DNA of 60,068 nt from a phage. Both the position numbers and the translations under genes were made by a program. Shown one piece after another: positions 25,150-47,863 of the stretch. Location: the sequence record PZ445425.1. One strand, 5' to 3'. Below the pieces are notes generated by a model. The model saw only the letters and a list, made by a program, of their open reading frames with translations, made no database searches and was not told where the DNA came from. Position 1 is the first letter of the stretch. Every line of letters starts with the position of its first letter.

Positions 25150-27135
25150 TTAGGCATATCCCATGTCTTCGAGATACTTCTCTGCTTTAGCTATATAAGC
25201 ATCATAATCTATGTCGTCCGGTATTTTATCCGGTAGCGTCATGATTGGGACACCTCCCGCGCTACCAGCTACACGGTTGCCCGAGTTAGCATAGATTATT
25301 TCAGGGGTTTCTTCATTGGTGCTTAAATACCAGCGTACAACCTTACCCAAAAATTCGCCATTCCATACCGCGCCGCCTTTTACTGCACGTAGGATAATGA
25401 ATTTTCTAATATCGTTGCAATTGCGTATAGTACGAGAAACAGGCGTACCGTGGGCCAAACATTCACATACAGCTTCCATAATAATTTCACCAGTACAGTT
25501 CTTTTGAAGCCCTGTCTTGGCAAACCAGCCCTTACGCTTAACTTCAACGTTACCTTCTGCATCAGGTTCTTTGACAGCTACATAGTTGTTAACGTTCGCG
25601 CTATATAGCTTGTCATAATAAGTGGATTCCATTTCAAAACCTGTGACGGATTCCCACCACTTGATCATGTTATCAACGAAGTCCTGCATGTGGTCAGGAT
25701 ACTTAACCACAATACCATCCGTGTTAGCTGAAATTACTTTAACACCGTTTAGCTCGAATGCTTCAATAAGCATTAACAGTGATAGTTGCCCTGTGATAGT
25801 TACCTGTATCAACAATTGCGGAGCGTACAGTACGGACCACATTGAACCCAATTTACCAAACGATCCGTTAATTACGATCTTCAGCGTATTGGCTGTGTTC
25901 TTGTCCCCTGAGTGCTTAGCTGCAATACGTCGGTCTACAATGCTTTTATAAACACGAAGAAACGCTGGTCCCAACTGCTCAGGATACAAGCCCTGATTAA
26001 GAATAATCGAAGGGTAATAGGACGTTACGTCAATATCCCGCTTCTTGATTCCAGGCTCTTTACCGTGTCCAGCGCATTCTTCAGAGCTGTGCAAACCACC
26101 AATACCCATACGGTAAACACCGTCTGCAATTTTAATCTCCAGGCCTGATAACGCTGGGGGCAAGCTAACGCCACCGTTATCGCTAACAACAAAGCGGCAG
26201 TCCCGAACAATATCCAAAACACTATTCATCAGAGGTGTTTGAAAACGAATAAAGTCCGGTATGTTATATGCATATTTAGTTCCAGGATAAACTTGTGGAC
26301 GCTGCGGACGCACGCCCGTTAACGCTTGAATTTCGTGTTTAATCACGTCTTCTGCAATCTGCGCATCAGAACGTGAACGCAGATCCACACCGTATTCTTG
26401 CGACATAATTACACGAAGATGTAAAGGTTCCTGTAATGCAATAAAACATTCTTCCGTCTGTACAAGGTCGTTAATACAGTACCAGCGTACAATCAACATC
26501 TGGTCCTGCGTCAGCATTGTATTTGGCTTGAACGGTAAATCCTGCATATGGCGAGTATGTACACGTCCGCCATATTGTTTCAAACCACCGGACCCAGGCA
26601 GCACTTCCATAATATCAATGTGGTTAACGTTCTGCATACGCTTAAGGCGGTAACTCTTCAACACATCGGAAGGACGCCAGTCTTCCACGATTATCTTATC
26701 GGTTGCATCTTTAAGCTGAGCATTAGAGCATCCGTTAAGCGCAAGCGTAGCAATGGGCATATCGTACCCGTTACCGTTAAAGCTTACGATAAGGAAGTTT
26801 GTCATTACCCAGTTAAGTAACAAGCAATTCAAACTACAACCGTGATACATTTCAAAGTAAACAACTTTCTTAGTTCGTACTCCGCGAAATGCAATTAAGA
26901 AATAGTTTAGATAACATTCAATATCGTACACAAGCGGTTCGCGGTTAATCCATGCTTGAATAAGTTCGTCCTGCGTATACAGGTTGTATTGGAAGTTCCG
27001 CGCTTCTTCAAGGTTAGGCAGATAATCCGGGCGCTCCCAAGTGCGCTCCGGCGGTAAACGTTTAACCTTTTCTTTCTTTGCTTTTGGCTCAGGCGGTAAG
27101 TCCTGCCAAAAGAAACCAATAGCATCTGTCCGCAT
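25150..27135 (-). CDS. DNA polymerase with family-B-like motifs and 3'-5' exonuclease
   Basis: Exo motifs YDIECY, FNGNGYD, YCINDL; polymerase motifs DVTSYYPSII, KIVINGSFGK, NTDG; start set to ATG 27135, overlapping upstream stop as TAATG. Confidence 0.6.
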   Translation of the reverse strand: MRTDAIGFFWQDLPPEPKAKKEKVKRLPPERTWERPDYLPNLEEARNFQYNLYTQDELIQAWINREPLVYDIECYLNYFLIAFRGVRTKKVVYFEMYHGCSLNCLLLNWVMTNFLIVSFNGNGYDMPIATLALNGCSNAQLKDATDKIIVEDWRPSDVLKSYRLKRMQNVNHIDIMEVLPGSGGLKQYGGRVHTRHMQDLPFKPNTMLTQDQMLIVRWYCINDLVQTEECFIALQEPLHLRVIMSQEYGVDLRSRSDAQIAEDVIKHEIQALTGVRPQRPQVYPGTKYAYNIPDFIRFQTPLMNSVLDIVRDCRFVVSDNGGVSLPPALSGLEIKIADGVYRMGIGGLHSSEECAGHGKEPGIKKRDIDVTSYYPSIILNQGLYPEQLGPAFLRVYKSIVDRRIAAKHSGDKNTANTLKIVINGSFGKLGSMWSVLYAPQLLIQVTITGQLSLLMLIEAFELNGVKVISANTDGIVVKYPDHMQDFVDNMIKWWESVTGFEMESTYYDKLYSANVNNYVAVKEPDAEGNVEVKRKGWFAKTGLQKNCTGEIIMEAVCECLAHGTPVSRTIRNCNDIRKFIILRAVKGGAVWNGEFLGKVVRWYLSTNEETPEIIYANSGNRVAGSAGGVPIMTLPDKIPDDIDYDAYIAKAEKYLEDMGYA

Positions 27136-28088
27136 TAGACACGTTCTCCAATTAATACACCGCGAAGATTTTCCCCAAAGAATGCGCAAGGTTGCGGATA
27201 CAAACTAAAGTCCGCAGTCTTAACCACATTTTCAAGCAATAGCAGGATATCAATATTGTACACTCCCGTAATTGTCCGGTCCTGCAATACGAAGCTTGCA
27301 CCTTCCGCATCATCATAGTGAGTACGGGCTAGACCGTTTTCGATATATACACGCGGTCTGTCTTCTGCGAAAGGTTTGATTTTATGCAAGCCTTCAAAAA
27401 GACCTGGATCAACAGGATGTGCATTGCATGGAACATTTAAAATACGACGTATATCTGGCCACTCCGCATCAATAAGCTGTGTCCGCAACCAGCGACCTTC
27501 CGGATAATGAAACGTTACGTTATTTTTACTGACCTGAATATGCGTCGGGTTAGCTTTAATACGCAGTATTTCTTTAATTGCAACGGAAGGTATTATGCAA
27601 TCGATAGGGAACTGATTACCAAACCAGTATTCCGCAATAGTGACGTTATTTGTAGCAAACAGGCTACCGTTATTAATCAGGATACCGCAAGCCCACGGAC
27701 GGGAAGCATCGGACCCAACAAATGGAGCAACGGACTTTACACCATGCACGAAGCGAGCACCGTCTATCTCGTATAACTCCCCTTCAGGGAATACGTGAGG
27801 CGTTTCCTTGTCAATGCAGCGTATAGCAACACGAAACGGTCCGGACTTGATATTAAGTTTACCGTTAGCCATCATTGTTAACTGTACGGTTTCGTCACAG
27901 TTTGAAATAGCCTTAATCATTGGACCCGCTTCGGGCTTACAATCAATATCCAGCTCAATAGGACTACCCAGTGCAATAACACCGTTAAAGCCTTGTACCT
28001 GCCCGTCACGAATAAGAAAACTGGTAAGCCCTTCTACCAGTTCCTTTTTAGCAACAGAGCCTTGAACAAATTTAAGAGCGTCTAACAT
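27135..28088 (-). CDS. hypothetical protein (317 aa) coupled to polymerase
   Basis: Long ORF with no recognisable motif; recurring TTAACCACA box about 22 nt upstream. Confidence 0.5.
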   Translation of the reverse strand: MLDALKFVQGSVAKKELVEGLTSFLIRDGQVQGFNGVIALGSPIELDIDCKPEAGPMIKAISNCDETVQLTMMANGKLNIKSGPFRVAIRCIDKETPHVFPEGELYEIDGARFVHGVKSVAPFVGSDASRPWACGILINNGSLFATNNVTIAEYWFGNQFPIDCIIPSVAIKEILRIKANPTHIQVSKNNVTFHYPEGRWLRTQLIDAEWPDIRRILNVPCNAHPVDPGLFEGLHKIKPFAEDRPRVYIENGLARTHYDDAEGASFVLQDRTITGVYNIDILLLLENVVKTADFSLYPQPCAFFGENLRGVLIGERV

Positions 28089-28315
28089 TAGCGATCCTCG
28101 ATTGCTCTAATTGTGGTTAAATCTAATTCACAGGTTGGAGGGTATCCATAAAGTCCCATTTGTTTTCCTTGTGCATTAAACCATGTGCCTGACGGATCCT
28201 GCCACTGCTTAGGTGTCTTGTGGAGAAATACTACTCTGTTTTCACCGTAATAATTAATTCTTACGCCTGTGTGAGTATATTTACGTTTACTTTTTGGTCT
28301 TCTTAAGTTAGCCAT
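28088..28315 (-). CDS. hypothetical basic protein
   Basis: 75-aa ORF, stop/start overlap with neighbours. Confidence 0.4.
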   Translation of the reverse strand: MANLRRPKSKRKYTHTGVRINYYGENRVVFLHKTPKQWQDPSGTWFNAQGKQMGLYGYPPTCELDLTTIRAIEDR

Positions 28316-29235
28316 CAGAACAACTCCATTACACGATCACGGAACGTGCCGTCATGGGTAGCATTAATATTTGCAGCAATTACACCATACGCCCATAAAT
28401 TGAAGGCGGCACGTGATTCATAGATTGTTGATAAACGTTCGTAAGTAAAACCGTTTTGCTCAAGGTATTTAAGGACAGCGTCCTGTTCAATTTCAGTTAG
28501 CGTTGAAACATGCTTACCAAAATGGTGACGGTCTGGTGACTTATCAGATACGCGCATTGGGCCCCACGGAGGAGTAACCACACTTCCAAACGCTGCCGCT
28601 TGAATCCAGGAGGATGAGTCACAGCTATACCACGGGTAACGCTCCATAATGGTTGTGGAGGTGATACCAAATGCATGAAGCTTAATCTTAGGACGACCGC
28701 TACCGTCGCAGATGTATTTGTCCCACATGCGGTCCAGCCAAGTTTTAAGCGTGTCCGTTGAACGCCCTACCATGCCACCAATCGTGATATATTCGTAGTT
28801 CTTCATGTAATATTCAAGATAGCGGAAGTCCTCACCAAAGTGAAAGCACGGTAACGGTTTAGCACCGCGTGCTTCCATTTCAAGCTGGTTACGGTAGGTT
28901 TGCAGTGGATCACCGATACCATCAAGCACCGAGGCCATTACAGCACCATCTTCTACCCGCAGAATATCTTTATTGCGTTTGATGTACTCACAGTATTCAA
29001 CAATATCAATGTGAGCACCTAACGAGTGCGCGGAGAATGCACCAGAGTCGAGAAACACTTTAGCCCCATCCGCACGCATTTGATCAACATACTTCTGACG
29101 CCCAACGTAGTGGTAGGATTCCAAAATATGGGGCAGATTGCGCGTGATATTTTTCTCATGCTCAGACAGCTTTTCATAACGCTGCTGTCCAGGCATATAT
29201 CCGTTCGTGTAAACTGCTGCCATAAAAACGTTCAT
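28315..29235 (-). CDS. dpdA: DpdA-like DNA-guanine transglycosylase (TGT family)
   Basis: 306 aa; VFLDSGAFS motif resembling the TGT catalytic DSGGFQ; no zinc subdomain; co-located with preQ0 synthesis genes. Confidence 0.6.
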   Translation of the reverse strand: MNVFMAAVYTNGYMPGQQRYEKLSEHEKNITRNLPHILESYHYVGRQKYVDQMRADGAKVFLDSGAFSAHSLGAHIDIVEYCEYIKRNKDILRVEDGAVMASVLDGIGDPLQTYRNQLEMEARGAKPLPCFHFGEDFRYLEYYMKNYEYITIGGMVGRSTDTLKTWLDRMWDKYICDGSGRPKIKLHAFGITSTTIMERYPWYSCDSSSWIQAAAFGSVVTPPWGPMRVSDKSPDRHHFGKHVSTLTEIEQDAVLKYLEQNGFTYERLSTIYESRAAFNLWAYGVIAANINATHDGTFRDRVMELF

Positions 29236-35239: not shown

Positions 35240-37216
35240 TTAGAACGGAACGTAATCTGGATCATCTACTTGTACAGGATTAACCACATTGTTCACTGTT
35301 ATACCTTGCGTATTCTGCGAAACAATATCATCCCAGCTCACATCATCGTTATAGCTTGGACCTTCGGTTGTTCCATCTTGCCCGTATACTTTAACCTGAA
35401 TAGCTTCGTCGTCCTGCGGTGCTTCAAACTTACCGAAACACGTACCATCATAATCATAGTTCAATATCTCAGGCCATTTCTTATTAGTATGAACTTTGAT
35501 GTATTTCGGTGTTTTGAGCATTGCAGCAACATCAAGAGCTTCTTCAATAGTTTGTGGTAAAGGAACATGCGTCCTTTTTTTCCACCATGCAACCGCTTTA
35601 CGACCAGCCCAGTCGCCATGCAGCAAAGCTACCCATTCGCTAAATATTTTACTGCCGCAATAATAAGTCACCTTCATTGTTGGAGGTTTGGAGCTGTCAT
35701 TGCGTTTAGTGTGCTTCGCATAAGTCACATGCGTAACTTTAAAGTCTTCAACTACCGGAATGTCCTGCTTGATTAATGCTTCGGTACTTGCTGCCTTTTT
35801 AAGTTTTGTCTGGAACTTAAACTCATGACCGCAAAATCCTTCTTTAACATAATCCGTTCCACGTAGTCTGAATCCCTTCAAATATAATTGTTGAACTTGT
35901 TCCTGTGTAACGCTGTCCATAGGGATTGGTGCAAAGCCACCGCAATAGCGAGCAGATGCATGATTATACGACCCGCACACATCGCATTCTTTAACCGGAG
36001 CAGTACCAGCACCTTTTTCGCCCGGGCGCTTAGGTTTAACAGGGTCGTTAATAGGCCCCAAACGGCGCGTATTACCGCTGAAATCCAGTACAAGGCAGTT
36101 CTGCTTAGGGCTTGCTGCAATAGCTTGCAAGCGACCTTCCTGCGTGGAAAGATCAAAGCCTTCCGCGTATACCGGACGCGTACCGCGACCTAGCATCTGA
36201 ACCCATAGCACAGCCGACGCAGTGGGGCGAAGCATGATAATCAGATCAAGCATTGGATGGTCGAAACCTGTGGTTAAGACGTTGTTATTCGTCAACGCTC
36301 GAAACTCACCACGCTTGAACTTTTCAATAATTTCATCACGCTCTTTTGCATCAAGCTTTGAGTGAATACATCCGCAACTAATACCCATATCGTTCAGCAT
36401 ATCACACGCATCTTTAGCGTGTTCAATACCAGAACAAAATATAAGCCAGCTTTGACGGTCTTCACCACATTCAATGGCTTCCTCAAGTGCGCGGAGTGTT
36501 GCGTCGTCGCGGTTTACCGCACTTTGCAGCTCACTCTGGATAAACTCACCGCCTCGTTTACCTACCCCGTTGAGGTCCAGTTCCATCTTTGTACGCTTTG
36601 GCACAACCGGAAGCAGATACCCTTGCTCCAGGAACCAGTTAAAGGCTTCAGGGGTAGTTGCATCAAACGTTACTTTATCAAATAAAGCATCATCGTCTTC
36701 GTTTTCCTTAACAATTGAGCCGTAACCCAGTCGATAAGGTGTAGCGGTAAGACCGATAATTTTTAAATACGGGTTAACTTCACGCAATGCTGCAAAGAAC
36801 TTCTTATACATTGTTGCATCACGCGGACTAATAAGGTGCGCTTCATCCACAAAAATTAGATCAACCTTGCCGAACTTTTTAGGATGCTTAGCGACAGATG
36901 CAATCCCCGCAAATGTGATAAGATTATAAACTTCTTTACGCTTCAAACCTGCGCTGTAAATACCTGCTGGCGCTTCGGGCCAGACTTTCATTAATTTATC
37001 ATAGTTTTGTGCAATTAACTCTTTGACGTGAGTTAACATCATTACGCGCTGGTTTGGATACCATTTGTAAAGCAGATCGAGGAACCCCGCGATAACGAGC
37101 GATTTTCCTGTCCCTGTTGGTAACAGGATCAAAGGGTTCCCCGCGTTACCCTTTTCAGCATCAAAATAGCGGAATACGCTATAAACTGCTTCCTGTTGAT
37201 AATCGCGGAGTTGCAT
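35240..37216 (-). CDS. superfamily-2 DEAH-box DNA helicase
   Basis: Walker A LLPTGTGKS, DEAH box, motif VI QMLGRGTR, C-terminal Cys-containing region. Confidence 0.75.
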   Translation of the reverse strand: MQLRDYQQEAVYSVFRYFDAEKGNAGNPLILLPTGTGKSLVIAGFLDLLYKWYPNQRVMMLTHVKELIAQNYDKLMKVWPEAPAGIYSAGLKRKEVYNLITFAGIASVAKHPKKFGKVDLIFVDEAHLISPRDATMYKKFFAALREVNPYLKIIGLTATPYRLGYGSIVKENEDDDALFDKVTFDATTPEAFNWFLEQGYLLPVVPKRTKMELDLNGVGKRGGEFIQSELQSAVNRDDATLRALEEAIECGEDRQSWLIFCSGIEHAKDACDMLNDMGISCGCIHSKLDAKERDEIIEKFKRGEFRALTNNNVLTTGFDHPMLDLIIMLRPTASAVLWVQMLGRGTRPVYAEGFDLSTQEGRLQAIAASPKQNCLVLDFSGNTRRLGPINDPVKPKRPGEKGAGTAPVKECDVCGSYNHASARYCGGFAPIPMDSVTQEQVQQLYLKGFRLRGTDYVKEGFCGHEFKFQTKLKKAASTEALIKQDIPVVEDFKVTHVTYAKHTKRNDSSKPPTMKVTYYCGSKIFSEWVALLHGDWAGRKAVAWWKKRTHVPLPQTIEEALDVAAMLKTPKYIKVHTNKKWPEILNYDYDGTCFGKFEAPQDDEAIQVKVYGQDGTTEGPSYNDDVSWDDIVSQNTQGITVNNVVNPVQVDDPDYVPF

Positions 37217-45498: not shown

Positions 45499-45525
45499 AA
45501 AGGGCCAAATAGCCCTTTATTTATT
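45499..45525. terminator. bidirectional terminator
   Basis: aaagggc-caaata-gcccttt followed by a T-run. Confidence 0.65.
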
Positions 45526-47863
45526 CCTCTTCTCCTAAGTTTGCCATAATACCTTCAACATCTTGCGTAATGCGCCAAGCTGCGCCAGTGAATCCCAGTT
45601 TGATAGTCTCCTCCCGTGTTACCGGAACAAGCGCACCCATAGCAACCATCTCTTTGATCGTAGACTCAATTGCCGCGGACAATCCGTGGTGATAGTTTTT
45701 AAACGCGGACTTACTTGCAAGACGAGTAGTAATATCACCCCGCGTGATAATGCCTTCCTTACGCAGATCTACACGTTTAACTTTCACCCAATCTTTAGTT
45801 AGATAATTCACACAAACCTGGCACATAGTACGGATACGAGCTTCGTCATTAGTACCGATACCCCCACTATGCCATTCCTTCATAATGATATCCTGTCCAT
45901 GACGCACAAAGTCCAAGGCCCATTGAACATGATAGGTCTGCACAACCGGATTGATCCAGTTTTCTCCCACAGCTAACAGGGCGGATAGACGTAACACCTT
46001 CAGGTGAGCACGGTTCCAGGGCTGACGGATTGCTTCGTCTTTGGTTGCGTTAATATTACGGTCACATTCGTCGTTAAACTGATCACATAATGCTTCCGCA
46101 TCCGGACTAAACTGCACTTCAATACTTTGATGCTTTGCCATTGCGACTAAGGTGTGGTTAACAAGATGGCACACCATATCCCGCAAATGCTGATCCATTG
46201 TAGTCTGCTGGTTCTTGTTTAAAGGTGGTCGATCCCCTTCATAGCGGACAACATGGAAACGGGATAAGAAACCGTCCTCCATCATTTCACGGGTTAATGC
46301 TTCAAAGAACGTATCCGGTGTCGTTTCACCCATGATGCTATAGGCCACACCTTGTTGAGCTTCCGTATTATTAGCCTTATCAGAATAAGACATACCACCG
46401 ACAATAGACATCTGACCGGACTTTTGATAAACATCGGTAAGGTCGTTCTTGAAGCTTTGCATCGGTGAACCTGCTGGCGCCGTTGCCATCGCTTTAATAA
46501 TCTTACCAAACTCACCATTCAAGTTGATAAAAGATTGTTTGTCCGCAAAAGATTTACGCAGTGCGGAGCCGGAAGCACATCGGTCAAAAGATACAAAGCT
46601 ATGAATCTGCGGAAACGGTTCCTGAAGCTGGCTAACTATATTAGATAGCCCACTGTTCAACGTTTCTTTACCAACACCAGAACGAGCAATAAGGACGAAA
46701 TATCCATTAAGACCCGATTGCGGAATCTGCCAGACCTTCCCGCATACCCCAGCCATAAAGCCTAGCGCTGTCACAATAGAAATTTCTTTCACTGGTCGGA
46801 CGGAGGCTTTATAGATGTATTTCGCAAGCTCCCCAGCAAGCCCCGGCGGCCAGTCAATAGCGGTTGCATCAATAGATGTACTTTCTGCAACTACGGTCTG
46901 CCCCTGTGTTGTTTCAACAGTTACGGGCATTTCCACTACCTGTTGCATTGCACTGTGTGCCGCTTGCATACGGGCAGCATAATCCCGCGCCAGCGCCGCT
47001 ACGTTTTCCTGGGCAATGCGCTCACGCTCCATGCGACCGCGACACATACGCAAGCAACGGTCAATATGAACATTGTTCTTATTAGCCTTCTCACGTTTGC
47101 CCAGTGCGCTATAACGGAACAGACGACGACATTGCTCATTACTTTCCGTGTAAAATGCATACATAGAAATAAGGGCAAGATCTGCTTCAGACTGGGAAGG
47201 GAAACCCATTTCAACCCATTCACCATTGAATAACCGCGCATACTTATCGCCGTTATCCGCTTCAAGTGCACGCTGATGAATAGTTGCATCATCTTCTACC
47301 GGATCTTTTTCTACCAGTTCAATTTCATATGTCTTGCGCTGAAGATCAATTTCATTCACAAGCATAGTAAGGTAATGATCACGTTCTGCAACTGGTTTGT
47401 TATAAACAGGATTGCCCGTGCAAATAATAAAACGCTCCTGACTATAAACCTCGACACCATCACGTCGACGACCTTTACCGATGTTCCCTCTTAACCACAG
47501 GTGGACGCCCAAGCCTGAGCGACTTACTTCGGTGTAAGTATCGAACGCGGTCATGATCTGTTCGAAGCGGCGCAACTGTTCTGGCGTCGTGTGCTTCTTG
47601 GGATCCGGTTCGTTGGTTGCGTTCTTCACATCCAGGTCGATGCAGGTGAAAGGGTCTTGCGCAGTAAGCACGAAGCCTATATAAGGTTTGTTGAAATGCG
47701 CGGCGCAACCTTTGGCAGCTTCAAACGTCATTAGCATATCCGGATCGGTAACGTCCGCCGCCATAAGACGTCCGATATCGTTGTCCCATACGAGCGGCTT
47801 TTTATCCGCATCGGCGACCGCCCATTGTGGGAAAGCTTTAATTTCAGCGGGAAATAGTTCCAT
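45521..47863 (-). CDS. primase-polymerase / helicase-like replication protein
   Basis: 780 aa; N-terminal Prim-Pol-like region with IDLD motif, central P-loop-like GVGKET. Confidence 0.5.
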   Translation of the reverse strand: MELFPAEIKAFPQWAVADADKKPLVWDNDIGRLMAADVTDPDMLMTFEAAKGCAAHFNKPYIGFVLTAQDPFTCIDLDVKNATNEPDPKKHTTPEQLRRFEQIMTAFDTYTEVSRSGLGVHLWLRGNIGKGRRRDGVEVYSQERFIICTGNPVYNKPVAERDHYLTMLVNEIDLQRKTYEIELVEKDPVEDDATIHQRALEADNGDKYARLFNGEWVEMGFPSQSEADLALISMYAFYTESNEQCRRLFRYSALGKREKANKNNVHIDRCLRMCRGRMERERIAQENVAALARDYAARMQAAHSAMQQVVEMPVTVETTQGQTVVAESTSIDATAIDWPPGLAGELAKYIYKASVRPVKEISIVTALGFMAGVCGKVWQIPQSGLNGYFVLIARSGVGKETLNSGLSNIVSQLQEPFPQIHSFVSFDRCASGSALRKSFADKQSFINLNGEFGKIIKAMATAPAGSPMQSFKNDLTDVYQKSGQMSIVGGMSYSDKANNTEAQQGVAYSIMGETTPDTFFEALTREMMEDGFLSRFHVVRYEGDRPPLNKNQQTTMDQHLRDMVCHLVNHTLVAMAKHQSIEVQFSPDAEALCDQFNDECDRNINATKDEAIRQPWNRAHLKVLRLSALLAVGENWINPVVQTYHVQWALDFVRHGQDIIMKEWHSGGIGTNDEARIRTMCQVCVNYLTKDWVKVKRVDLRKEGIITRGDITTRLASKSAFKNYHHGLSAAIESTIKEMVAMGALVPVTREETIKLGFTGAAWRITQDVEGIMANLGEEE

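What the first reader, a model, noticed from the sequence alone, without database searches (positions are those of the whole stretch)
27135..28088. Unassigned 317-aa protein translationally coupled to the DNA polymerase
Its stop overlaps the polymerase ATG (TAATG), implying co-expression, and it lies between the polymerase and dpdA. No motif was recognised. It could be a polymerase accessory factor or an additional modification enzyme.
Basis: inference. Interest (0 to 1): 0.4.

Follow-up and report, generated by a model that had tools for sequence, protein, structure and literature searches.

The report
Phage beta-type sliding clamp gene
The "unassigned" 317-residue protein is the phage's own ring-shaped DNA sliding clamp, which holds its DNA polymerase on DNA; databases already name it, but conserved end-motifs suggest it may also tether the enzyme that chemically modifies the phage DNA.

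Summary
The ORF is real: minus strand 27135..28088, 317 aa, with its stop sharing one base (TAATG) with the polymerase ATG. It is not unassigned. The window is a Seuratvirus genome (99.7% aa identity to phage WildeMaa, 99.1% to CAjan), where this gene is annotated "DNA polymerase beta subunit / processivity factor".

It matches PHROG 947 end to end (E 5e-82). Its AlphaFold model (pLDDT 90.5) hits only bacterial DnaN clamps (Foldseek E ~1e-19, TM 0.8, three domains). Profile alignment to DnaN runs end to end (97% probability).

The clamp-then-PolB gene order also holds in related phages without dpdA. "Polymerase accessory factor" is therefore supported and "modification enzyme" is not. No clamp loader is encoded, and the acidic pI (5.56) fits a closed ring loaded by the host.

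A new lead came out of the work.
- PolB carries an invariant N-terminal R-x-D-A-I-G-F-F-W-x-D peptide on a Pro/Lys-rich linker.
- DpdA ends in Q/M-E-L-F-COOH, which resembles a clamp-binding motif.
- That tail is conserved in 72/72 related DpdAs, and comparable tails occur wherever a phage clamp is encoded nearby.
- It is absent in clamp-less Rosebush.

The clamp may couple 7-deazaguanine insertion to replication. This is inferred, not shown.

The parts
27135..28088 (-). Sliding clamp gene (317 aa): beta/DnaN-type, three domains, PHROG 947 'DNA polymerase processivity factor'
   Evidence: ORF. PHROG 947 E 5.4e-82 over residues 1-317. AF2 pLDDT 90.5, pTM 0.84. Foldseek top 50 hits are all DnaN clamps, E ~1e-19, TMq 0.77-0.83. 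hhalign global against DnaN: 97.3% probability, residues 1-317 vs E. coli 10-366. Annotated as such in WildeMaa and CAjan.
25150..27135 (-). Family-B DNA polymerase (661 aa), the presumed client of the clamp
   Evidence: phrog_1252 E 5.5e-227. Partial NCBIfam PolB / Pol II hits. Best PDB sequence hit is 1s5j, deposited as 'DNA polymerase I' (family B from my own knowledge), E 9e-6. PolB motifs are visible in the sequence: DVTSYYPS, KIVINGSFGK, NTDGI.
27100..27135 (-). PolB N-terminal peptide MRTDAIGFFWQD, a candidate clamp-binding motif
   Evidence: R, D, G, F, W and D are invariant or nearly so (62-64 of 64 unique N-termini; R, G and W in all 64), while polymerase identity is only 44-65%. Related Septimatrevirus polymerases lack it and instead end in a canonical-looking xLx[FL]F-COOH tail.
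27031..27099 (-). Pro/Lys/Glu-rich linker (PolB residues 13-35, LPPEPKAKKEKVKRLPPERTWER) between the N-terminal peptide and the polymerase body
   Evidence: Low-complexity and variable in sequence. A ~45-aa insertion containing a second GFW motif occurs here in R7M-type polymerases.
27133..27137 (-). TAATG stop/start overlap between clamp and PolB
   Evidence: Identical junction in CAjan.
28086..28090 (-). TAATG stop/start overlap between orf75 and clamp
28088..28315 (-). 75-aa ORF of unknown function between dpdA and the clamp gene; among the loci compared it was detected only in the Seuratvirus-like ones
   Evidence: phrog_38388 E 6e-57. tblastn finds it only in the near-identical Seuratvirus loci. 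WildeMaa has two small ORFs at this position.
28315..29235 (-). DpdA (DNA 7-deazaguanine transglycosylase, 306 aa)
   Evidence: phrog_887 E 2.3e-96. 100% identical to the WildeMaa '7-deazaguanosine inserting enzyme DpdA'. dpdA is essential for dPreQ0 in CAjan DNA (PMC6884629).
28318..28332 (-). DpdA C-terminal tail V-M-E-L-F-COOH, a candidate clamp-binding motif
   Evidence: Sequence. 72/72 unique related DpdAs have L-[FYW] in the last 6 residues and 60 end exactly in LF. The last four positions carry 2.9-4.3 bits against about 1-2 bits in most of the preceding linker. 120/120 database homologues carry the tail. Tail and clamp co-occur.

Best explanation
The 317-aa protein is a phage-encoded beta-type (DnaN-like) sliding clamp, the processivity factor of the phage's own family-B DNA polymerase.

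Shown:
- It belongs to a large phage family (PHROG 947).
- It has the three-domain beta-clamp fold along its whole length.
- Its gene is kept immediately upstream of the PolB gene, often overlapping it, with or without dpdA nearby.

Inferred by homology:
- Two chains form a head-to-tail ring of six domains around duplex DNA.
- PolB docks into the hydrophobic cleft between domains II and III. The most likely docking element is its invariant N-terminal R-x-D-A-I-G-F-F-W-x-D peptide, carried on a flexible Pro/Lys-rich tether.

Inferred from absence:
- The phage encodes no clamp loader and the clamp is acidic like ring-forming clamps. It is therefore most likely loaded by the host DnaX (gamma) complex.

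The 1-nt stop/start overlaps of dpdA, orf75, clamp and polB would give coupled translation of these products.
For: Family and fold:
- PHROG 947 'DNA polymerase processivity factor', E 5.4e-82, residues 1-317 against profile 12-365/368.
- AF2 model: pLDDT 90.5, pTM 0.84, six long helices arranged as three ~105-aa repeats.
- Foldseek against PDB: the top 50 hits are all bacterial beta clamps, E 8e-20 to 2e-18, TMq 0.77-0.83, about 360 aligned columns.

Sequence links to DnaN:
- phmmer against E. coli beta, E 0.01.
- Profile against Rickettsia DnaN, E 2.4e-5, residues 2-242.
- TIGR00663, E 2.5e-8.
- hhalign global: 97.3% probability, E 5e-11, residues 1-317 against 10-366.
- In that alignment, the E. 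coli beta residues I take to line the peptide-binding cleft (cleft assignment from my own knowledge) pair with invariant or near-invariant family columns: R130, W132, G135, T146, P211, and the C-terminal G-M/E-R.

Annotation and synteny:
- Annotated as processivity factor / beta subunit in CAjan, WildeMaa and many others.
- Clamp-then-PolB order holds in essentially all of ~85 related loci where the downstream sequence is present. These include dpdA-less Halfdan and Septimatrevirus phages.

Client motifs:
- Septimatrevirus PolBs end in KKAKTA-[AE]L[AS]FF, AALPLF or AQLFF-COOH, close to the bacterial QL[SD]LF motif.
- Queuovirinae PolBs instead have the invariant N-terminal GFFW peptide.

Loader and ring form:
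- No clamp-loader family was found among the window's early-strand proteins of 110 aa or more that were scanned.
- pI is 5.56 (family median 5.6, E. coli beta 5.25). This is the ring-type range by the criterion of Kazlauskas & Venclovas 2011.
Against: - No experiment on this family was found in the paper library.
- The protein fails the curated sequence cut-offs for DnaN: Pfam 22.3 against 27 bits, TIGR00663 33.3 against 137.65.
- It is about 50 residues shorter than cellular beta clamps.
- Dimerisation, ring closure, loading by the host loader and stimulation of PolB are all untested.
- The PolB N-terminal peptide has more invariant positions than typical clamp-binding motifs. It could instead bind the helicase or primase, or fold back onto the polymerase. 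No complex model could be computed with the tools available.
Confidence: 0.85

Rival explanations
1. Extension rather than strict rival. The clamp is a shared hub (tool-belt) that tethers not only PolB but also DpdA, through DpdA's C-terminal Q/M-E-L-F-COOH tail. Replacement of G by preQ0 would then happen at or just behind the replication fork.
For: Conservation of the tail:
- The DpdA tail is the most conserved part of an otherwise variable C-terminal region. 72/72 unique relatives have L-[FYW] in the last 6 residues, with 2.9-4.3 bits at the last four positions against about 1-2 bits in most of the preceding linker.
- 120/120 database homologues carry it.
- L305 is invariant and F306 nearly so across 12 DpdAs, down to 31% identity.

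The tail tracks the presence and type of clamp:
- In 20 genome-collection loci with a detectable clamp (13 with a strong PHROG-947-type match, 7 with a distant one), it reads QELF, QGLF or QRLF, or GFGL, GLGLI, QGFSL or EGLL in the distant ones.
- In Firmicute phages Dp-1 and Flasso, which encode DnaN-type clamps, it reads Q-R-R-L-F and Q-G-K-L-F.
- It is absent in Rosebush, whose whole genome has no detectable clamp. It is also absent from the tblastn-matched reading frame in six loci where no clamp was detected; only L134 and L143 have the full 8-kb flanks, and L146-L149 have less sequence or are distant matches.

Resemblance to known motifs:
- The tail resembles the C-terminal tails of Septimatrevirus PolBs and the bacterial QL[SD]LF motif. 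QMELF in some relatives is a perfect match.

Other support:
- In the AF2 model of DpdA, residues 265-306 have pLDDT below 50, so the tail is not predicted to be packed.
- The dpdA-clamp-polB order is nearly universal.
- No paper in the library links DpdA to a clamp.
Against: - Purely sequence-based; no binding was modelled or measured.
- The co-occurrence is confounded by phylogeny, because the tail-less DpdAs belong to distant subfamilies.
- Cellulophaga phage phiSM has a DnaN-like clamp but a tail-less, shorter DpdA.
- Rosebush reaches ~28% G replacement with no clamp and no tail, so tethering is not required for DpdA activity in general.
- The DpdA model is poor (mean pLDDT 66.5), so the low tail confidence is weak evidence.
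- The tail could bind the host beta clamp or another partner instead.
- The analogous claim for T4 alpha-glucosyltransferase and gp45 was not reproduced in a 2025 preprint.
Confidence: 0.35
2. The protein is a non-ring processivity factor that binds DNA directly, like herpesvirus UL42/UL44, and therefore needs no clamp loader.
For: No clamp loader is encoded in the phage. Fewer than half of viral processivity factors are accompanied by loaders, and some of those lacking loaders are thought to bind DNA directly (PMC3201878 and PMC4889955).
Against: - The pI is 5.56 with net charge -7, like ring-forming cellular clamps and unlike the basic loader-less type.
- The full three-domain architecture aligns end to end with DnaN, including the C-terminal residues.
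Confidence: 0.08
3. The protein is a host-takeover decoy: a clamp mimic that titrates host clamp-binding proteins or the host loader, rather than serving phage replication. Alternatively, it is a DNA-tracking activator of late transcription, like T4 gp45.
For: Clamps are used for late transcription by T4 and, via the host clamp, by Mu. A phage clamp that retains the cleft could in principle bind host partners.
Against: - Strict linkage with, and frequent translational coupling to, the phage's own PolB across very divergent phages.
- Conserved candidate docking peptides on phage proteins.
- No gp33/gp55-like partners were noticed.
Confidence: 0.04
4. The protein is an additional DNA-modification enzyme of the 7-deazaguanine pathway.
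For: Only its position near dpdA and the preQ0 synthesis genes.
Against: - The whole chain is a clamp fold with no enzymatic domain.
- The family occurs next to PolB in phages with no deazaguanine genes.
- The CAjan pathway is accounted for by FolE, QueD, QueE, QueC and DpdA.
Confidence: 0.01

Closest known systems
Bacterial beta sliding clamp (DnaN, DNA polymerase III beta subunit; e.g. E. coli 2POL/1MMI, P. aeruginosa 6PTH)
   Same: - Three-domain fold along the whole chain (Foldseek E ~1e-19, TM ~0.8).
- End-to-end profile alignment.
- Acidic pI.
- Conserved residues at positions aligned with the peptide-binding cleft and the C-terminal M-R tail.
- Clients with terminal hydrophobic xLF-type peptides.
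   Different: - Only 14-18% identity, and about 50 residues shorter (317 against 366).
- Fails the curated DnaN thresholds.
- Partners with a family-B polymerase rather than Pol III alpha.
- Encoded by a virus that has no loader of its own.
Phage-encoded PolIII-beta homologues without clamp loaders (surveyed by Kazlauskas & Venclovas 2011 and Kazlauskas et al. 2016)
   Same: A viral beta-clamp homologue encoded next to a viral polymerase with no cognate loader gene. This is the same open question of how such a clamp gets onto DNA.
   Different: The example discussed in that survey (Bacillus phage 0305phi8-36) has an elevated pI and was predicted to bind DNA directly. This family is acidic (pI ~5.6), which points to a closed ring and host-mediated loading.
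T4 gp45 sliding clamp with gp43 polymerase
   Same: A phage-encoded clamp serving a phage family-B polymerase that docks through a terminal peptide. The clamp is also a hub for other proteins.
   Different: gp45 has two domains per subunit and forms a PCNA-like trimer with its own loader, gp44/62. The protein here has three domains per subunit, is presumably a dimer, and has no loader.
Clamp-tethered DNA-modifying enzymes: the proposed T4 alpha-glucosyltransferase-gp45 interaction, and eukaryotic DNMT1-PCNA (DNMT1 from my own knowledge)
   Same: The idea that a DNA-modifying enzyme rides on the replication clamp through a short terminal motif, so that new DNA is modified as it is made.
   Different: The T4 interaction was proposed from in vitro data and was not reproduced in a 2025 preprint. 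For DpdA the evidence here is a conserved C-terminal motif and its co-occurrence with clamps, with no biochemistry.

Membership tests
PHROG 947 (phage 'DNA polymerase processivity factor') | Significant full-length match to the family profile | tested here: met
   E 5.4e-82, 276.7 bits, residues 1-317 against profile 12-365/368.
Beta sliding clamp superfamily (DnaN-like) | Three structurally similar beta-alpha-beta domains in one chain (six domains per dimeric ring) | tested here: met
   The AF2 model has six long helices in three ~105-aa repeats. Foldseek aligns ~360 columns to 366-aa DnaN chains with TMq 0.77-0.83. hhalign covers residues 1-317 against 10-366.
Beta sliding clamp superfamily (DnaN-like) | Passes the curated sequence thresholds for DnaN (Pfam DNA_pol3_beta domains; NCBIfam TIGR00663 equivalog) | tested here: not met
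   Pfam DNA_pol3_beta_2 scores 22.3 bits against a cutoff of 27, and the N- and C-terminal domain models gave no hit. TIGR00663 scores 33.3 bits against 137.65. It is therefore a distant homologue, not a DnaN equivalog.
Beta sliding clamp superfamily (DnaN-like) | Hydrophobic peptide-binding cleft between domains II and III, completed by the C-terminal residues | tested here: inconclusive
   Columns aligned with E. coli R152, Y154, G157, T172, P242 and M362-R365 are R130, W132, G135, T146, P211 and I313-G314-E315-R316, the last four reading G-M-R in the family consensus. Most are invariant or near-invariant. No coordinates or complex model were available to check the pocket itself.
Beta sliding clamp superfamily (DnaN-like) | Head-to-tail homodimer forming a closed ring around DNA | not testable with these tools
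   Only monomer prediction was available. The acidic pI of 5.56 is consistent with ring-type clamps.
Beta sliding clamp superfamily (DnaN-like) | ATP-dependent loading by a clamp loader | not testable with these tools
   No loader family was found in the window. Use of the host DnaX complex is inferred only.
Beta sliding clamp superfamily (DnaN-like) | Raises the processivity of its cognate polymerase | not testable with these tools
   The only support is conserved adjacency and coupling with PolB. No experimental paper was found.
PCNA / T4 gp45-type clamps | Two domains per subunit, forming a trimeric ring | tested here: not met
   The model has three domains. All top structural matches are DnaN, not PCNA or gp45.
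Non-ring herpesvirus-type processivity factors (UL42/UL44) | Elevated positive charge / basic pI for direct DNA binding | tested here: not met
   pI 5.56, net charge -7. Only 1 of 120 family members has a pI above 7. The criterion comes from PMC3201878.
Clamp-binding motif (bacterial consensus QL[SD]LF), applied to the DpdA tail and the PolB N-terminus | Short conserved hydrophobic peptide at a terminus or in a flexible region, matching the consensus | tested here: inconclusive
   DpdA tail: [IV]-[QM]-E-L-F-COOH, with QMELF in some relatives. It is highly conserved after a variable linker, and pLDDT is below 50 in a poor model.

PolB: A-I-G-[FL]-F-W at residues 5-10, followed by a Pro/Lys-rich linker.

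The match to the consensus is partial.
Clamp-binding motif (bacterial consensus QL[SD]LF), applied to the DpdA tail and the PolB N-terminus | Physical binding of the peptide in the clamp cleft | not testable with these tools
   No multimer prediction or biochemistry was available.

The most novel reading that the evidence does not exclude
The phage clamp is a hub shared by replication and DNA hypermodification. DpdA, the enzyme that swaps guanine for preQ0 in phage DNA, carries a dedicated C-terminal clamp-binding tail (Q/M-E-L-F-COOH) and rides on the phage-encoded clamp. 7-deazaguanine insertion would then be coupled to the fork rather than being a free post-replicative reaction.

The same logic (a clamp gene next to dpdA, and DpdA ending in a hydrophobic xLF or GFGL tail) recurs in very distant phages, including Firmicute phages with DnaN-type clamps.

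Phage DpdAs appear to have no DpdB ATPase partner (none was noticed in the annotated regions, though this was not searched for systematically). If so, the clamp could also supply the DNA tracking that bacterial DpdA gets from DpdB. That last point is my speculation.
Probability: 0.35. Interest if true: 0.65.

Novelty: already known. Interest (0 to 1): 0.33.

Why it matters
The identity of the gene changes nothing. It is an ordinary, already annotated replication gene of Seuratvirus-like phages. What it does is remove a false "unknown" from the scan.

Two things could matter.

1. This large family has 2964 clusters at 50% identity, yet I found no experimental study of it. It is a loader-less, acidic beta-type clamp paired with a family-B polymerase. 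How it gets onto DNA is a concrete open question: by hijacking the host DnaX complex, or some other way.

2. The conserved terminal peptides on PolB and DpdA give a directly testable hypothesis, that DNA hypermodification is physically coupled to the replisome through the phage clamp. The test is cheap in a system where dpdA genetics and LC-MS/MS read-outs already exist (CAjan).

Tried and rejected
- phmmer of DpdA against PDB sequences found nothing at E<=1. No solved relative could be used to place the tail.
- The search for related loci with the Halfdan clamp found no relatives.
- Other window proteins were checked for terminal xLF motifs. The primase starts MELF and the RusA-like ORF starts MPGLF. 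Neither is conserved in homologues (ART primase, L067 RusA), so both were dismissed as chance.
- The first attempt to scan the polymerase used a wrong start coordinate and failed.
- I considered modelling a clamp-linker-peptide fusion to test docking. I did not submit it.
- The AF2 model of DpdA was meant as a possible falsifier (a tail packed into the fold). It came out poor (mean pLDDT 66.5), so it only fails to refute the hypothesis.
- Searches for a clamp loader with PHROG, Pfam and NCBIfam found only a Sak4-like AAA_24 ATPase and no DnaX, delta or RFC-like protein.
- The modification-enzyme reading was rejected on fold.
Full report
**Observation**

Its TAA stop (27137-27135) shares one base with the ATG (27135-27133) of a 661-aa polymerase gene at 25150..27135, giving TAATG. 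A GGAG lies 10 nt upstream of that ATG, and a GAGGA lies 6 nt upstream of the clamp's own ATG.

A 75-aa ORF (28088..28315) lies between this gene and dpdA (28315..29235). All three junctions are 1-nt overlaps: TGATG at dpdA/orf75, TAATG at orf75/clamp, and TAATG at clamp/polB.

**Where the window comes from**

tblastn against the phage collection gives 99.7% amino-acid identity to Escherichia phage WildeMaa and 99.1% to CAjan (Seuratvirus, Queuovirinae). 359 phage records hold a homologue.

In those records the gene is already named:
- "DNA polymerase processivity factor" (CAjan gp33);
- "DNA polymerase beta subunit" (WildeMaa bas23_0034).

The protein is therefore not unassigned in public annotation.

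**What it is**

- At curated thresholds the sequence is silent. Pfam DNA_pol3_beta_2 scores 22.3 bits against a cutoff of 27. NCBIfam dnaN TIGR00663 scores 33.3 bits against 137.65. That explains why a reader without tools saw no motif.
- The phage-specific profile PHROG 947 matches end to end at E 5.4e-82.
- A profile of 38 homologues (A1) finds Rickettsia DnaN in PDB sequences at E 2.4e-5 over residues 2-242.
- A global hhalign of A1 against a small DnaN alignment gives 97.3% probability and E 5e-11. It aligns residues 1-317 with E. coli beta 10-366.
- The AlphaFold2 model is confident (pLDDT 90.5, pTM 0.84) and shows six long helices in three ~105-residue repeats.
- The top 50 Foldseek hits in the PDB are all bacterial beta sliding clamps: E 8e-20 to 2e-18, TM 0.77-0.83 on the query, ~360 aligned columns, 14-18% identity.
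- In the hhalign alignment, E. coli R152, Y154, G157, T172 and P242 pair with family residues R130, W132, G135, T146 and P211. The E. coli C-terminal M-P-M-R pairs with I-G-E-R in this protein, which reads G-M-R in the family consensus. Most of these columns are invariant or near-invariant. That these E. coli residues line the peptide-binding cleft is from my own knowledge of the beta-peptide structures.

The protein is a three-domain, beta-type clamp. It is not a two-domain PCNA/gp45-type clamp, and it is not an enzyme.

The downstream gene is a family-B polymerase:
- phrog_1252, E 5.5e-227;
- partial PolB / Pol II NCBIfam hits;
- best PDB sequence hit 1s5j, deposited as "DNA polymerase I", E 9e-6; that it is Sulfolobus PolB1 is from my own knowledge;
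- motifs DVTSYYPS, KIVINGSFGK and NTDGI visible in the sequence.

The clamp-then-PolB order is kept in JenP2, NP1, R7M, Iggy, RHph_Y1_1, BcepGomr, ART and Synechococcus phage JY38. It is also kept in Halfdan (Lokivirus) and the Septimatrevirus SCUT-S3, which have no dpdA in the regions examined. It holds in essentially all of 80 metagenomic viral loci where the downstream sequence is present.

Of 81 loci, the clamp stop and pol start overlap in 38 and lie within 20 nt in 14 more. This supports "polymerase accessory factor". Together with the fold, it excludes "additional modification enzyme".

**How it probably works**

By homology, two chains would form a six-domain ring that slides on duplex DNA and tethers PolB.

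No clamp loader is encoded. PHROG, Pfam and NCBIfam scans of the early-strand proteins of 110 aa or more that were scanned found:
- an SF2 helicase;
- a Cas4-like exonuclease;
- a DUF669 SSB-like protein;
- a Sak4-like AAA_24 ATPase;
- a ligase, an RNase H, a dUTPase and a RusA-like protein;
- an NrS-1-like primase.

They found no DnaX, delta or RFC-like protein.

Kazlauskas & Venclovas (2011) noted that viral clamps lacking loaders tend to be basic, and they predicted that such clamps bind DNA directly. This clamp is acidic: pI 5.56, net charge -7. The family median is 5.6, and only 1 of 120 members exceeds pI 7. E. coli beta is 5.25. A closed ring loaded by the host DnaX complex is therefore the most economical reading. 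It is inference only.

**Candidate docking peptides**

PolB begins M-R-T-D-A-I-G-F-F-W-Q-D. Across 64 unique N-termini, R, G and W are invariant and D, F and D nearly so (62-63 of 64), although polymerase identity is only 44-65%. The peptide is followed by a variable Pro/Lys-rich stretch. In R7M-type polymerases, a ~45-aa insertion carrying a second GFW separates the peptide from the polymerase body.

The core A-I-G-[FL]-F fits the bacterial clamp-binding pattern Q-L-[SD]-L-F at the hydrophobic positions. The consensus is from my own knowledge.

Septimatrevirus PolBs lack this peptide. They end instead in a C-terminal extension: KKAKTA-[AE]L[AS]FF, AALPLF, APLFF or AQLFF-COOH. A motif of the same character that moves between termini is typical of short linear docking motifs.

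In a still more distant group, the polymerase genes are different and a DnaX-like loader is encoded. There the gene after the clamp starts M-R-G-F-F, M-G-L-F-E or M-K-E-L-F-F.

**The unexpected link to DpdA**

DpdA of the window ends ...F-R-D-R-V-M-E-L-F-COOH.

Conservation among relatives:
- Among 72 unique DpdAs from related viral loci, all have L-[FYW] within the last six residues, and 60 end exactly in LF.
- Information content is 3.1, 2.9, 4.3 and 4.0 bits at the last four positions (consensus Q-E-L-F), against about 1-2 bits in most of the preceding 20 residues.
- All 120 best database homologues carry the tail.
- In an alignment of 12 DpdAs reaching 31% identity, the Leu is invariant and the Phe nearly so.

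Where the tail appears:
- BcepGomr (QQGLFV), a Stenotrophomonas phage (QMELF, a perfect consensus match) and Synechococcus phage JY38 (PVLF). All of these encode the clamp.
- The Firmicute phages Dp-1 (Q-R-R-L-F) and Flasso (Q-G-K-L-F), which encode DnaN-type clamps a few genes away.
- In a scan of bacterial and archaeal genome bins, all 20 loci with a detectable clamp in the locus (13 with a strong PHROG-947-type match, 7 with a distant one) have a hydrophobic tail. It reads QELF, QRLF or LGLF, or GFGL, GLGLI, QGFSL or EGLL in the most distant ones.

Where it is absent:
- Six genome-bin loci where no clamp was detected (L134, L143, L146-L149), in the tblastn-matched reading frame. Only L134 and L143 have the full 8-kb flanks; L146-L149 have less sequence or are distant matches.
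- Mycobacteriophage Rosebush, whose DpdA ends ...QGASAQ. Its whole genome has no ORF detectably similar to any of five clamp queries.

Other evidence on the tail:
- An AF2 model of DpdA places residues 265-306 at pLDDT below 50. That is consistent with an unpacked tail, but the model is poor overall (mean 66.5), so this only fails to refute the idea.
- No paper in the library connects DpdA with a clamp.

Caveats on the DpdA link:
- The co-occurrence is confounded by phylogeny.
- phiSM has a DnaN-like clamp but a short, tail-less DpdA.
- Rosebush modifies ~28% of its G without a clamp.
- The tail might bind the host clamp or something else.
- The analogous T4 alpha-glucosyltransferase-gp45 interaction was not reproduced recently.

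I put this reading at about 0.35.

**Comparison with what is known**

The protein works like, and is a distant member of, the beta sliding clamp superfamily.
- It meets the fold criterion and the PHROG family criterion.
- It fails the curated DnaN equivalog thresholds.
- Ring formation, loading and processivity could not be tested.
- It differs from T4 gp45 in domain number, oligomer and loader, and from basic loader-less viral clamps in charge.

Phage PolIII-beta homologues, and the fact that fewer than half of viral clamps come with loaders, are already described. The family is large: 2964 representatives of 50%-identity clusters at E<=0.001 and 877 at E<=1e-30, nearly all 310-335 aa.

**Verdict**

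The finding is real but ordinary. Its own interest is low.

What raises the score somewhat is the by-product: conserved terminal peptides on PolB and, unexpectedly, on DpdA. These give a specific and cheap test of whether 7-deazaguanine modification is tethered to the phage replisome.

Noticed in passing
window 28318..28332 (-), DpdA C-terminus; also L001-L089, L090-L094, L097, L114-L139: Phage DpdA ends in a strongly conserved Q/M-E-L-F-COOH tail after a variable linker. Comparable hydrophobic tails occur wherever a phage clamp is encoded nearby. They are absent in clamp-less Rosebush and in six genome-bin loci where no clamp was detected. This is a candidate clamp-binding motif.
   Followed up: yes
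window 27100..27135 (-), PolB residues 1-12: An N-terminal peptide R-x-D-A-I-G-F-F-W-x-D, invariant or nearly so at R, D, G, F, W and D, sits on a Pro/Lys-rich linker. Septimatrevirus PolBs (L007, L099-L111) lack it and instead end in xLx[FL]F-COOH.
   Followed up: yes
window 35243..35266 (-), C-terminus of the SF2 helicase (35240..37216): The helicase ends ...V-D-D-P-D-Y-V-P-F, and a homologue in L083 ends D-D-F-D-D-D-I-P-F. These resemble the acidic C-terminal tip of E. coli SSB (DFDDDIPF, from my own knowledge), which recruits many host proteins including the chi subunit of the clamp loader. This could be one route for bringing the host loader to the phage fork. The tail is not conserved in more distant homologues.
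   Followed up: partly
window 28088..28315 (-): A 75-aa ORF (phrog_38388, function unknown) is coupled by 1-nt overlaps to both dpdA and the clamp gene. It was detected only in the near-identical Seuratvirus loci. WildeMaa has two small ORFs at this position, and other genera have none, or homing-endonuclease or other inserts. This is a variable slot inside an otherwise fixed gene string.
   Followed up: partly
L127-L139 (genome-bin contigs, probably phage): A distant group has the same dpdA-then-clamp order but different polymerases (split ~404 + ~470 aa genes, or a 1091-aa PHP-domain Pol III alpha-like gene in L136). It also has its own DnaX-like clamp loader (N-terminal KYRP motif). Here DpdA tails are GFGL, GLGLI, QGFSL or EGLL.
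   Followed up: partly
P0266 (metagenomic protein, 497 aa): One family representative is a fusion of an N-terminal DUF6884 domain (Pfam E 2.2e-11, distantly YaaA-like) to a full clamp at residues 175-496. It could be a natural client-clamp fusion or a gene-calling artefact.
   Followed up: partly
L004, L025, L027, L030, L033, L035, L051, L061 (PolB N-terminal region): R7M-type PolBs carry a ~45-aa insertion between the N-terminal GxFW peptide and the polymerase body. In most of them the insertion contains a second [PSA]-G-F-W-A-E motif (L061 has PGRW instead).
   Followed up: no
window 45521..47863 (-): The 780-aa primase matches the NrS-1 polymerase helix-bundle domain (Pfam PF22763, just above the gathering score) and primase/helicase PHROGs. 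It is therefore likely a primase-polymerase fused to a helicase rather than a DnaG-type primase.
   Followed up: no
L094 (Streptococcus phage Dp-1), L097 (Bacillus phage Flasso), L095 (Cellulophaga phage phiSM): Very distant dpdA-carrying phages also encode a clamp within a few kb of dpdA. Dp-1 has DnaN plus three clamp-loader genes, Flasso has DnaN, and phiSM has a DnaN-like protein. A general dpdA-clamp neighbourhood may exist beyond Queuovirinae.
   Followed up: partly
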